DNA from: Eledone cirrhosa
Taxonomy: Eukaryota
NCBI GenBank assembly: GCA_964016885.1
Contig: OZ024741.1
Location: forward strand, 211,668,001-211,732,000
DNA: 64,000 nucleotides
Direction of reading: 5' to 3'
Below the pieces are notes generated by a model. It did not search any database. It was not told the origin of the DNA and worked only from the letters and a program-made list of their open reading frames with translations. Shown piece after piece: positions 15,967-26,848 of this stretch (within the stretch, counting starts at the first letter, position 1; every line of letters begins with the position of its first letter). A program made the translations under genes and the position numbers.

Positions 15967-16791
15967 GGAAAAAGTATGACCCCTAATCCGAATCTCTCCT
16001 TGGTGGTGTCGAAGTCCTGATTGTCGCGGTATCTATCGTAGAAAATAGTTCTCCATCTTAGTCTTTTCGCAAAATGGTCGATTTTTTTACGTGAACATCC
16101 GAAGGTAAAGTTTTCTTGGTGGAACTGGGATGTTCTTGGTGGAGAAGTCGAAGTTGTGTTTTCGCATCGTGTGGTTGAAGAAACTTGAGCTGGGTGGAAA
16201 AGTCGGGATATGGCGTGGTAGAGTCGGAAAGTGCTCTACTACAGATATAGGAGCTAAATAACAAAGGTATTGTGGTAAGGAACCAGATGGATCATAACGC
16301 ACCAGAGTACTCACTACTTAGGGTAGTAGAGTGGGAAATAGGAAACAGTATGACCCCTAATCTGAATCTCTCTTTGGTGTCGAAGTCCTGATTGTCGCGG
16401 TATCTATCGTAGAAAAAAGTTCTCCATTTTAGTCTTTTCGCAAAGAGGTCAATTTTTTGTGTGAACATCCGAAGGTAAAGTTTTCTCGCTGGAACATATC
16501 CCGACTTTTCCACCCAGCTCAAGTTTCTTCACCCGCACTATGCGAAAGCACAACATCGAATTCTCCACCAAGAACATCCCAGTTCCACCGAGAAAACTTT
16601 ACCTTCGGATGATCACGCAAAAAATGGAGAATTTTTTTCTACGATAGATACCGCGACAATCAGGACTTTGACACCAAGGAGAGATTCGGATTAGGGGTCA
16701 CACTTTTTCCTATTTCCCACTCTACTACCCTAAGTATTGAGTACTCTGGTGCGTTATGGTCCATCTGGTTCCTTACCACAATTCCTTTGTT
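15967..16791. mobile_element. PLE-derived non-autonomous element: ~1.4 tandem copies of a ~374-bp unit (minus) joined head-to-head to a partial plus copy
   Basis: The unit encodes MRKHNFDFSTKNIPVPPRKLYLRMFT.KIDHFAKRLRWRT.FY...KERFGL, resembling PLE ORF N-termini. The unit repeats at 15967 and 16341; inversion at ~16495; flanked by (TA)n. Confidence 0.75.
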
Positions 16792-17877
16792 ATATATATA
16801 TATATATATGTGTGTGTGTGTGTGTTTATATATATATGTATACATATATGTATAAACAAAATTAACTCGAATATCTAGTTTTGAAGCGCGAGTATATTAG
16901 AATTCTTAGGAAATTGGAAAATCTCGGCGTAAGGAATCTGTTAAAACAACAAAATGACGTCGAAGCGGCAAAATCAGGGGCTTGAAGTTAGTTGCCTCAA
17001 AGAAATGATATGACGGAAAAAATAGAATGGATGAGAAGAGATCGCAATCATTAAAATAGGCTCATCAGATTTCAGACCCCCTGCAGTTTCAATGATTTAC
17101 CTGAAATTACTGCGAAGAATAGGTGGCTCGTAACAACGGAGAATTAAATATCTTCTTTGGTATAATGTTTGTGTTGGGACAGGTTAGAGAGAGAGAAAGA
17201 GAGAGAGAGAGAGAGAGAAAGGAAGAACTGTGGCACTGTCAGCAGAACTGGCCCGTAGAAGGAGAGGGGAAGAAAGAAGGTAATCGTGGGAGGGAGAGAA
17301 AGAAAGAAAGGAGCAGTAAGAGAGAAGGGAGAGAAAGAAAGAATGAAAGAACGGGGAACAGAGGAAGAAGGAAGAAAAGACAAATCACCTTAAGCATGTC
17401 ATCAGTTGGCGCTAGAAGGCTAGTATAGCTATTAAAGTCCAATATCGAATTTTGAAACGCGAGTGTATTAGAATTCGTATGAACATTTCTCACTTCCTAT
17501 CAATTGTTCGAATCAACTCACTTCAAGCCTCTTATTTCTATCCTTCGAGGTACTTTATACAGCTATGCATGGAGCTAAATCCCATTTCTATTCTATCTAT
17601 CTATCTATCTATCTATCTATCTATCTATCTATCTATCTATCTATCTATCTATCTATCTATCTATCTATCTATCTATCTATCTATATACACACACACACAT
17701 ATATATATATATATATATAATATATATATATATATATATATATATATATATATATAGGTTACTTGGTTCACCACTGGATAGAACTGGTCATTCCGTATAG
17801 TCAATCTCGATGTAATATTATGGAGAGATTTTCAGCCCCATGGATTTTATCTGTTATATTCCTTTGTTATATTTCGA

Positions 17878-17935
17878 ATACCTGATGATATCACCGGATT
17901 CATACTGAACCCGGTCATTGAATTGATCATAGTAT
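17878..17935 (+). ncRNA. Degenerate hammerhead motif (GAAA changed to GAAT)
   Basis: Stem I ATAC/GTAT; CTGATGA; stem II ACCGG..TTCA/TGAA..CCGGT; palindromic TGATCA at stem III; AATAAA downstream. Confidence 0.55.
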
Positions 17936-18014
17936 AATAAACCTTTCAAGGATTTACAGCAGTCCAGCCTCCTGTTATTTTATAATTATTATATATACGT
18001 ATAGTAGTGCTAAG

Positions 18015-18866
18015 TTTAATATTCTGATCGCAGACTTGCTACAAGTGATGAAGAATGTGCCCCGCATGTGCGACCCAACAGAAATGGAAAGACATCCAAC
18101 ACTTCATCAACCGCATGCAGTTTTCTGGCTACAACTAAAGAGACAGAATCAGAGTATACAAAGGAGCCACTGAGAAGTATAAGACCCTCATAGAACTGGA
18201 CATGAAAGGAATTTTCCCATTACACAGGAGCAAATCATGGAATAGCTTAGATAGGACTAAACCTAAGATAGGGAAAGCCACCTCGTGGTACGACAACCAA
18301 AGATACCAGAGTGTCATGTTCGTGGATGCTACCCCTGGAGGGAAATTAGCTAACCAGTGTAGAAAGGCCCTGAGAAAGACCCACTTAAAGATTAAAGTGG
18401 TAGAAAAGCCAGAACTACCATAAAATCCCTGATCAGCAAAACATACCCTTTTAAGAAAACCCACTGTACTAATAGGAAATGTGTTATATGTAAAGTAAAC
18501 CCCCAGATAAACTGTAAAACTAGAAACATAGTCTATAGCATAAGATGTACAGAGGGTACTTGCAGAAACATGACAACAGCATACATAGGCGAGACAGCTC
18601 GTAGCATAGGAGAAAGGATAGACGAACACTGGGGGGAATTAAAAGGACGAAAAAACGGTTCAGTACTATACGAACACGGAAGACAACAACATGACGGTAA
18701 CATAGACAACATAGAAATTAAGATATCTAAAGATAGAAATGACCCAGCAGATAGGCAAATCAGAGAGGCCAGTGAAATAGAATTTAGAAGGCCAAAGCTA
18801 AACAGAAAAAATGAATGGAATAGCAACAACACCCAAACAAACAATACTAACTTAAGAGAAATATAA
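18015..18866 (+). pseudogene. Penelope-like (Neptune-type) element C-terminus: RT tail, Cys-rich linker and GIY-YIG endonuclease; frameshifted and 5'-truncated
   Basis: SVMFVDATPGGKLA, C-x4-C-x2-C linker, IVYSIRC...YIGETARSIGERIDEH, RQIREA, LNRKNEW. Confidence 0.88.
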
Positions 18867-19093
18867 ATAAATAAATATATACACAAGCACAATAACAACA
18901 AACACATATAAACACACACTAATAAACAAAGATAGAAAACAATAACCAAAACACAGTCACCAAAAATGCGAACACACACCAAACACTATACACACACGCA
19001 AACGAATGCACAGAGAAGAGGACAAAAATAAATAAATAAATAAACAGATAAAATAAAAATGGCGTACACATACAATACAACAGGAGGAACATA

Positions 19094-24954: not shown

Positions 24955-25484
24955 TCTCTATCTATCTATCTATCTATCTATCTATCTATCTATCTATCTA
25001 TCTATCTATCTATATATCTATCAATCTATCTATCTATCTATCTATCTATCTATCTATCTATCTATCTATCTATCTATCTATCTGTCTGTCTATCTATGCC
25101 TATATAATATATATATATATATCTGTATATGTATATGTATATATATATGTATATATATATGTATATAAATATGTATATATATATATATTTGTCTATATAT
25201 ATGTGTATATATATAAATATATATATATATATATATATATATATATATCTGTGTATATATATATATATATATATCTGTATATATATATATGTATATATAT
25301 ATATATATATATATATATATATATATATATATATATATATATATATATATATATATATATATATATATATATATATATATATATATTTTTGTAGGTATAT
25401 ATATATATATATATATATATATATATGTATGTGTGTATATATATATGTATATATATATGTATGTGTATATATATATACATATAT
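24955..25484. repeat. (TATC)n and (TA)n microsatellites
   Basis: Read directly from the sequence. Confidence 0.95.
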
Positions 25485-26059
25485 GGTGGCTGCCAACTCG
25501 TTTTCGATTACGGCCACTACTTTATATCCATGTAGGAGAACCCCTACCGAGGCGCTGAACGAGTGTGATTTTTAGTCCAGCAAGCGACTTGAAAACTCTG
25601 GTACAAACACTACACTTGTGACAATTATTGACACATAGTGCTGGGCCCATGGTACCATGTGATGACAAGTGCAGAGAGATCTCCAGATATAAAGCAATGC
25701 CTGTGCTGTGAAGCTTTTATAGTGAGCAAAGGCACTGCACAAAACCAGTCCCACTCTCTTAACCAAGATGATATTTACCAAAAAGAAGAACAAGACAACA
25801 TCATTGGATACCATCAGGGTTGAAGGTGTTACATCAGAGTTTTCCTTCTCCTAGAATTCTGCCTTGACAAAAGCTAAGGGGTCATCTCTCTCGGTGATTT
25901 TGGATGGCCATTGACTCTTAAGAGCGCCTTTTATCTTTTGGCAGGTTTTGTTTTTAGTCCTGCGGATGTCCAAAGTCACCCCCTCACCAAGAAACCTTGG
26001 GCTGCCAGTTTAGCCGCCACGACCCGACCATGGGACAGGTTGTACTGGGGTACATGTTA

Positions 26060-26480
26060 CCATATACATATATATATACATACATATATACATATATATA
26101 TATACATATATAAATATATATACATATATATATACTTACATATATAAACATATATACTTATATATATATATACATACATATATACCCATATATATATATA
26201 TATATATATACATATATATATACATATATATATATACATATATACACATCTATAAATATACATATATATACACATCTATAAATATACATATATATATATA
26301 CATATATACATATATATATATACATATATACATATATATATATACATATTTATATAGATACACATATATATATACATATATATATACATATATATATATA
26401 TATATATATATATATATATATATATATATATATATATATATATATATATATATATATATATATATATATATTTACATATA
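26060..26480. repeat. (TA)n/(TACA) microsatellite
   Basis: Read directly from the sequence. Confidence 0.95.
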
Positions 26481-26680
26481 AACGTACATGTCTATCTGTC
26501 TATTTATATACTTAACTATATCTACTACATAGCTTGATATTTATCAACCTCTCTATGTTTTGTATCTACATTCTAAAACACGCCTCACTTTCTCTCTCTC
26601 ACCCTCGTAAATAGACATGCATCGTATACTCTGAGTATACATATAAATATATATATATATATATATAATATATATATATA

Positions 26681-26848
26681 TAGGAACAAGTAGTACGCCG
26701 ACCGCTGTGCTCAAGTCCTTTCGACGGCTAATTCTTGAGCTCAGCCGTCGGGGTCCTACTTGTTCCTATTACCCACTCTACTACCCTAAGTATTGAGTAC
26801 TTTGGTGCGTTATGGTCCATATGTTTTCTTACCACATTTCCTTCGTTA
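26681..26848. mobile_element. Small fold-back element in (TA)n sharing a ~100-nt module with the 16-kb PLE-derived unit
   Basis: 26681-26715 is an inverted copy of 26734-26768. 26750-26848 matches 16694-16792. Confidence 0.78.

What the first reader, a model, noticed from the sequence alone, without database searches (positions are those of the whole stretch)
15967..26848. Conserved ~100-nt non-hammerhead module shared by two different fold-back elements with matching end points
Seen: ggggtc.tact..ttcctatt.cccactctactaccctaagtattgagtact.tggtgcgttatggtccat.tg.tt.cttaccaca.ttcctt.gtta occurs at 16259-16357 (minus), 16694-16792 and 26750-26848. Upstream sequence is unrelated between the 16-kb and 26.7-kb loci. 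At both loci the left inverted arm stops at ...TTCCTA|(TA)n and the right arm at ...GTTA|(TA)n. There is no CTGANGA/GAAA core. Inference: a cis-acting RNA module (RT-recognition or priming signal, or a different self-cleaving ribozyme) in the slot where PLEs usually carry a hammerhead. The antisense of the 16.3-kb copy forms an ACTAC/GTAGT hairpin with a TTAGG loop, an AAATAG linker and a downstream CCTAA, loosely recalling pistol-ribozyme layout. However, the rest of the pistol core is not evident and the pseudoknot partner is absent at 26.7 kb.
Basis: partly seen in the sequence, partly recalled or inferred. Interest (0 to 1): 0.75.

Follow-up and report, generated by a model that had tools for sequence, protein, structure and literature searches.

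The report
Penelope retrotransposon tail behind variant hammerhead
The shared 100-base piece is the end of a very abundant Penelope-type jumping gene and starts exactly where a known variant of the hammerhead self-cutting RNA is predicted to cut, so it is likely not a new ribozyme, although a small class of copies that stop at that point likely records the cut happening in living cells.

Summary
The three copies and their fixed ends are real; the reading 'non-hammerhead module on two unrelated elements' is not supported. Both loci are fragments of one Hydra-clade Penelope-like element (PLE) with thousands of copies here. The 'unrelated' 16-kb upstream is the element's own 5' body. Full copies carry, directly upstream, a type I hammerhead with a U3-A8 core (UUGANAA), which a CTGANGA search misses; the 3-8 pair runs C-G, U-G, U-A across subfamilies and stem II covaries. 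The module begins at the predicted cut site, folds no better than shuffles and shows no covariation; the pistol-like hairpin needs a base found in 1 of 209 copies. Ends at +19 and +99 match the two reverse-transcription starts known to make the PLE 'tail' (here 80 nt). Most arms stop 33-41 nt upstream (likely the transcription start); a minority stop exactly at the cut site, about 7-fold above a matched control site, and the 16-kb insert is a 370-nt unit from that site copied through one junction three times. Cleavage itself is untested. The scan has noted the same pattern in other PLE families (unchecked notes).

The parts
15965..15983 (-). 16-kb insert, short arm: element +1..+19, ending TTCCTA into (TA)n (likely reverse-transcription start 1)
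   Evidence: 126 of 312 arms end at +19/+20
15985..16357 (-). one whole 369-nt unit: module +1..+99 (16357-16259), 5' leader, and start of the PLE ORF (ATG at +191 = 16167) to +369; followed by one extra A (15984) and +1 again
   Evidence: 93% to L121 over 373 columns; ATG offset
16259..16357 (-). module copy 1 (+1..+99)
16359..16495 (-). partial unit +233..+369, joined by one extra A (16358) to +1
16495..16692 (+). partial unit +146..+369 with a 26-nt deletion, joined by one extra A (16693) to +1; this is the 'unrelated upstream', in fact the PLE 5' body
   Evidence: junction occurs at 3 places in the genome, all in this insert
16694..16792 (+). module copy 2 (+1..+99): stem I 3' strand, start 1 (+19), 80-nt tail, start 2 (+99) into (TA)n
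26681..26738 (-). 26.7-kb insert, short inverted arm -39..+19 with the mutated 3' half of the hammerhead (stem II 3' strand, GAAA, stem III, GUC)
26734..26848 (+). 26.7-kb insert, tailed arm -16..+99 (loop III, stem III 3' strand, GUC cut triplet at 26747-26749, module copy 3 at 26750-26848)
26636..26680 (.). (TA)n target, left of the 26.7-kb insert (a matching run follows at 26849-26921; short runs flank the 16-kb insert at 15956-15964 and 16793-16809)

Best explanation
The module is the last 99 bases of the terminal repeat of a Hydra-clade Penelope-like retrotransposon, from the predicted cut site of an upstream U3-A8 hammerhead to the element's end, and its two fixed ends are likely the two places where the element's reverse transcriptase starts copying after nicking a (TA)n repeat. 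Shown: family identity, hammerhead layout and covariation, end-point peaks, matching arms. Inferred mechanism: RNA likely starts at -41 (a conserved T[T/C]AGT inside loop II). The protein nicks both strands of (TA)n and primes one cDNA at +19 and one at +99 on RNA of the same source; both run to the RNA 5' end and are joined head to head, giving the short fold-back with one arm 80 nt longer (26.7-kb type). Longer read-through RNAs that hold the whole hammerhead sometimes self-cleave; their 3' product starts at +1, so cDNAs stop at +1 or jump from +1 to an RNA 3' end. The 16-kb insert is such a case: a +1..+369 fragment copied across the same junction three times.
For: Full-length natural copy L121: pLTR, ORF, pLTR, 3096-nt unit, with RWR, DKT, YRDD, CxCx5C, CxxC and CxH motifs, the Hydra hallmarks in PMC8557442 section 11. 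Module follows a GIY-YIG ORF plus 3' UTR in L003, L008, L022 and precedes the 5' body in most of L062-L090. Hammerhead: N7 is the only core position that varies (C 50, A 13, G 1 of 64) and takes all four bases across subfamilies; 3-8 pair is U-A 12, C-G 3, U-G 2, never C-A, in 17 aligned copies; three stem II pairs change on both sides; 91.9% of cells pair versus 27-48% for slid controls. Ends: of 312 arms, 126 end at +19/+20 and 124 at +98..+100. In 30 position-ordered loci, 26 have an inverted partner within 170 nt, 22 partners end at +19, 28 tailed arms end at +99. Arms share the subfamily-variable segment in 76 of 88 inserts (shuffled mean 21, max 33). 5' stops: 36 of 52 at -33..-41, 1 beyond -48. 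Stop at +1: both arms stop there with an untemplated insert in 8 of 35 short-centre loci, versus 1 at +2, 1 at +3, none upstream; arms preceded by A are true junctions in 20 of 30 at +1 versus 6 of 30 at control position -3 (Fisher p 6e-4; about 157 versus 22 genome-wide, while point changes are alike, about 78 versus 89). Two internal RT starts make the tail in vitro for an anole PLE (PMC11167929).
Against: No cleavage, start-site or reverse-transcription experiment was possible. Rfam does not detect the parent hammerhead and its fold is only modestly better than shuffles (z -2.06 for L086, -0.04 for L286). In one search the count of pairs changed on both sides (5) is not above the shuffle control (150 of 500), and related sequences inflate the other scores. 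A test for a cap-derived G before -41 was inconclusive (G 18, C 15, T 22, A 5). Pfam gave no domain for the ORF pieces and no tree was built, so clade membership rests on motifs. +1 lies next to the 3' base of stem III, so an RT stall there is not excluded. Many samples were the best hits to a query and are biased; only L171-L200, L201-L235, L309-L368 are position-ordered.
Confidence: 0.88

Rival explanations
1. The module is itself a new or pistol-like self-cleaving ribozyme standing in for a hammerhead.
For: It is conserved across subfamilies over about 80 nt while loop II upstream diverges.
Against: z-scores 0.81, 0.21, 1.07, -0.09 on both strands of two copies; consensus energy -0.38 and -0.11 kcal/mol with 0 of 5 pairs compensated in 18 divergent copies (one row was given on the wrong strand); no Rfam ribozyme hit up to E 5; pistol-like hairpin private to one copy; a hammerhead is present just upstream.
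Confidence: 0.03
2. The short fold-backs are a self-propagating non-autonomous element (MITE-, Helentron- or SINE-like) copied as a unit from master copies.
For: Arms match within an insert; one centre junction recurs in many of the best hits to the 26.7-kb copy.
Against: Centres vary from insert to insert; the same junction occurs in different subfamily variants and with the arms swapped (L200 versus L175, L190); every part is collinear with the autonomous PLE; mixed-subfamily two-tailed inserts exist (L002).
Confidence: 0.08
3. The PLE identity holds, but the stops at -41 and +1 are reverse-transcriptase stalls at RNA hairpins or DNA-level deletion hot spots, not RNA 5' ends; the hammerhead rarely or never cuts in vivo.
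For: +1 abuts stem III and a G4 run; -41 lies in an inner hairpin of loop II in subfamily A; no RNA ends at the hammerhead site were found for the anole PLE; cap test inconclusive.
Against: Stops with inserts fall 23 at +1, 9 at +2, 7 at +3 but 3 at -1 and 1 at -2, one-sided as for a physical end; +1 is joined to unrelated downstream element positions (+246, +369, +548); the AGT at -41 is invariant in 17 of 17 aligned copies although loop II differs.
Confidence: 0.2

Closest known systems
Hydra-clade PLEs (Craig et al. 2021, PMC8557442; I read part 2 of 10, section 11, found passages, and supplement part 2 plus search hits)
   Same: C-terminal GIY-YIG, RWK-like, DKT, CxCx5C, CxxC and CxH motifs, (TA)n targeting, 3' hammerhead, inverted 5'-truncated partner copy, optional tail.
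   Different: All 26 Hydra hammerhead rows in their File S2 have a C3-G8 core and short loops; this family has U3-A8, a long stem II with a 30-nt loop region, a 5-bp stem III with a palindromic 9-nt loop, an 80-nt tail (30-40 nt is described) and a 750-nt 3' UTR. Its ORF differs by eye from their Hydra-1_Obim; not aligned by program.
U3-A8 minimal hammerheads of Schistosoma Cercyon PLEs (Cervera and de la Pena 2014, PMC4209133; parts 1-2 of 4 read) and natural U3-A8 cores (Perreault et al. 2011, PMC3088659; passages)
   Same: Same core covariation, reported active in vitro by the source Perreault cites; motifs in pLTRs, some in close inverted pairs.
   Different: Here stem III is long enough for a predicted monomer fold, and C-G, U-G and U-A states are seen in one lineage.
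Anole Poseidon PLE, internal RT initiation (Frangieh et al. 2024, PMC11167929; parts 1-2 of 4 read)
   Same: Two RT start sites downstream of the hammerhead define the tail; both strands of AT-rich DNA are nicked and extended.
   Different: Their starts lie in the ORF; here both lie before the ATG (+191). They found no RNA reads ending at the cut site; here a class of genomic inserts stops there.
Metazoan non-LTR retrozymes (bioRxiv 10.64898/2026.07.22.740005, part 1 of 5 read; PMC7229834, search listing only)
   Same: Tandem 150-400-nt units mobilised by PLEs, with junctions at a hammerhead cut site.
   Different: The 16-kb unit contains no hammerhead, occurs once in the genome and ends inside the ORF: a dead-end product, not a retrozyme family.

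Membership tests
Penelope-like element (EN+) | single ORF with RT and GIY-YIG endonuclease between pseudo-LTRs | tested here: met
   L121 pLTR-ORF-pLTR (broken by stops and frameshifts); RT and EN motifs read directly; 1130 homologs of about 700 aa, 1 of 120 listed with PF00078; Pfam itself gave no hit
Penelope-like element (EN+) | inverted 5'-truncated partner and a tail at one end | tested here: met
   26 of 30 with partner, 22 ending at +19, 28 tailed arms at +99; tail is 80 nt, longer than described
Hydra clade | RWK-like and DKT motifs, CxCx5C linker, CxxC and CxH in EN, C-terminal EN | tested here: met
   RWR, SDKTG, CNCPDRSTC, CNLC, CKH in L121, L084, L107 against section 11
Hydra clade | (TA)n insertion | tested here: met
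Hydra clade | groups with Hydra RTs in a phylogeny | not tested
   no reference sequences were available as tool sequences; resemblance to the supplement alignment judged by eye
Hydra clade | canonical C3-G8 hammerhead | tested here: not met
   young subfamilies have U3-A8; older relatives (L274, L276, L282, L291) have C3-G8, so this is a derived state
Type I hammerhead (parent pLTR, -87..+4) | core 3-9, GAAA, NUH, three stems, G10.1-C11.1, paired 3-8 | tested here: met
Type I hammerhead (parent pLTR, -87..+4) | Rfam hammerhead model match | tested here: not met
   no hit at the motif up to E 10 in 6 loci; long stem II and variant core are a likely cause
Type I hammerhead (parent pLTR, -87..+4) | self-cleavage at the NUH | not testable with these tools
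   indirect only: excess of inserts stopping at +1
Pistol or other self-cleaving ribozyme (module itself) | conserved, covarying fold and core | tested here: not met
Naiad PLE | N-terminal EN, DKA, no canonical hammerhead | tested here: not met
   EN is C-terminal, motif is DKT
Non-LTR retrozyme (16-kb insert) | hammerhead in each tandem unit, multi-locus family | tested here: not met
   no core in the unit; junction unique to this locus

The most novel reading that the evidence does not exclude
The genome keeps a fossil record of a PLE hammerhead cutting in vivo: hundreds of inserts were copied from the cut 3' product, and some, like the 16-kb insert, from a circle made by joining that cut end to an adenylated break inside the ORF, which the PLE enzyme copied round more than once from both of its start sites.
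Probability: 0.5. Interest if true: 0.6.

Novelty: new member of a known kind. Interest (0 to 1): 0.4.

Why it matters
As proposed (a new ribozyme) it does not stand. What remains bears on an open point: the papers read say PLE hammerheads lack in vivo evidence (PMC4209133) and that no RNA ends at the cut site were seen (PMC11167929). End points of thousands of copies give exact, testable coordinates for the RNA start (-41), the cut (+1) and two RT starts (+19, +99), and suggest both cDNAs of an insertion come from one RNA source. It also shows that CTGANGA-only searches miss whole PLE families. I did not find genomic end-point evidence for PLE hammerhead cleavage in searches, but I read few of those papers and the library lacks most subscription journals.

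Tried and rejected
Rfam on window 1-35200: only microsatellite-driven miRNA hits. Rfam on six loci with full pLTRs: no hammerhead at the motif; one weak HH9 hit elsewhere. Naiad was my first guess, rejected on domain order. First idea that most copies stop at the cut site: rejected, since 2369 exact matches keep the upstream C against 285 that do not, and about 5 of 30 of the latter are junctions, so the class is roughly 2% or a little more. Cap-derived G test: inconclusive. RNA runs: no RNA holder listed. Pfam on ORF pieces: nothing significant. The automatic junction labels were wrong for four rows and the arm test had a bug; both were redone. The 5'-stop value -48 (6 arms) is a chance match to the partner arm, not a longer copy. 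Search of earlier findings by sequence: nothing. Paper search for C3U/G8A wording: none. Supplements of the bioRxiv preprint and of PMC11167929 (Fig. S2, tail mapping) were not seen and may bear on the end-point claims.
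Full report
Observation. The three copies exist at the stated places and are 94, 86 and 89 of 99 bases identical. Both inserts are fold-backs in (TA)n whose left arm ends at TTCCTA and right arm at GTTA. 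I number the module +1..+99. Rfam finds no ribozyme in window 1-35200.

Copy number. The window is in a 3.0-Gb animal genome; earlier scan notes call it octopus-type (unchecked). One exact 30-mer of the module has 2369 + 285 matches. In 17 arbitrarily placed 10-kb stretches there were three whole tails and one part, which points to tens of thousands of copies, a very rough figure.

One element, not two. L003, L008 and L022 show a GIY-YIG ORF, a 3' UTR of about 750 nt, then the module and (TA)n. L121 is a whole natural copy, pLTR-ORF-pLTR, 3096 nt per unit, broken by stops and frameshifts. Its motifs (RWR, DKT, YRDD, CxCx5C, CxxC, CxH, EN at the C end) are those given for the Hydra clade, which inserts in (TA)n (PMC8557442 section 11). 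Pfam gave no hit; a homolog search gave 1130 mostly unnamed proteins near 700 aa. No tree was built. On L121 the 26.7-kb insert is -39..+19 inverted plus -16..+99; the 16-kb insert is +19 to +1, A, +369 to +1, A, +369 to +233 on one strand and +146..+369, A, +1..+99 on the other.

The hammerhead is there. Upstream of the module full copies read: CCCC, UUGANAA, G, long stem II, C, GAAA, 5-bp stem III with a palindromic loop, GUC, then GGGG, the first bases of the module. N7 is the only variable core position among 64 copies (C 50, A 13, G 1). A pattern for this core has 5238 genome matches. Older subfamilies have C3-G8 (4 copies), two copies have U3-G8, 44 have U3-A8, none C3-A8; 13 further rows were 12 chance matches at arm starts and one copy with A3. 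On 17 aligned copies 91.9% of cells pair against 27-48% for slid controls and three stem II pairs change on both sides; the number of such pairs is not above the shuffle control (150 of 500), and relatedness inflates the other measures. A descriptor over 854 kb of fetched loci (enriched for this family) gave 38 C3-G8 and 47 U3-A8 hits but 1 U3-G8 and 0 C3-A8. U3-A8 is known from Schistosoma PLEs (PMC4209133) and is reported as active (PMC3088659); none of the 26 Hydra rows in File S2 of PMC8557442 has it. Rfam misses the motif, and its fold is only modestly better than shuffles.

The module is not a ribozyme. It folds no better than shuffles on either strand. Eighteen divergent copies give a 5-pair consensus of -0.38 kcal/mol with no compensated pair; the antisense gives -0.11 (one row of 71 on the wrong strand). 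The pistol-like hairpin needs a base seen in 1 of 209 copies.

End points. Of 312 arms, 126 end at +19/+20 and 124 at +98..+100 (many loci were query-selected). In 30 position-ordered loci 26 have an inverted partner, 22 partners end at +19 and 28 tailed arms at +99. For an anole PLE two internal RT starts make the tail and both DNA strands are nicked and extended (PMC11167929); I infer the same here with an 80-nt tail. The two arms share the subfamily-variable segment in 76 of 88 inserts, and the rest differ by 1-3 bases (shuffled mean 21), so both cDNAs likely come from one RNA source. On the 5' side 36 of 52 arms stop at -33..-41 and one passes -48. The AGT at -41 is invariant in the 17 aligned copies though loop II diverges; T[T/C]AGT resembles the invertebrate initiator (recalled), and Drosophila Penelope has an internal promoter with an initiator (PMC2377424, passages). 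A cap test was inconclusive. An RNA that starts at -41 lacks the 5' core, which explains why short inserts show no hammerhead.

Signs of cutting. Stops at +1 are a minority, roughly 2%. But among 41 loci with very short centres (35 fetched), both arms stop at +1 with an untemplated insert in 8, against 1 at +2, 1 at +3 and none upstream; three blunt cases are ambiguous. Arms preceded by A are true junctions in 20 of 30 at +1 and 6 of 30 at the matched CpG site three bases upstream (p 6e-4; about 157 versus 22 in the genome), while point changes are alike at both (two loci gave two arms each). L331 joins +246 to +1 and L068 joins +548 to +1. The 16-kb junction (+369, A, +1) occurs three times, only in this insert: one template was copied through the same junction twice from +19 and once from +99. 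A circle, or repeated jumps onto one RNA 3' end, would both give this; I cannot tell them apart. An RT stall at the base of stem III remains a rival.

Verdict. Observation partly confirmed, interpretation partly supported. The thing is the tail region of a new Hydra-type PLE family with a known hammerhead variant. The end-point record is the interesting part, and it is inferred from DNA alone. Earlier notes of this scan describe the same two pile-ups and two-armed arrays in other PLE families; they are unchecked, came after my analysis and add no independent support.

Noticed in passing
window 15317-15956: A separate fold-back element directly beside the 16-kb insert carries another U3-A8 hammerhead in each arm (core at 15848 plus and 15426 minus; short stem II, palindromic stem III).
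   Followed up: partly
window 17757-19220: A different PLE remnant with a C-terminal GIY-YIG-like ORF (18396-18866) and a canonical CTGATGA hammerhead at 19103; a further CTGATGA motif at 17882.
   Followed up: no
window 26918-27077 and 27840-27989: Two copies of another repeat with a canonical-core hammerhead and a long stem II (core at 26987).
   Followed up: no
window 35269-64000: A 28.7-kb array of an 18-bp unit, about 1617 copies, 90% matches.
   Followed up: no
window 1921-7384: An apparently intact LINE: 445-aa ORF1 with a zinc knuckle and a 1150-aa endonuclease-RT ORF2; other non-LTR remnants at 1-1778 and 7492-13886.
   Followed up: no
L151, L156, L082, L110, L183, L186, L189, L191: At least two more U3-A8 hammerhead families and many C3-G8 families turn up in the flanks of fetched loci.
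   Followed up: no
L301 and L324: A single extra A sits exactly between -1 and +1 in otherwise continuous copies, as if the RT crossed the cut from one fragment to the other.
   Followed up: no
L128:2-2183 and L162: Long open frames of other Hydra-like families (727 and 375 aa); no hammerhead was seen by eye behind the L128 frame.
   Followed up: partly
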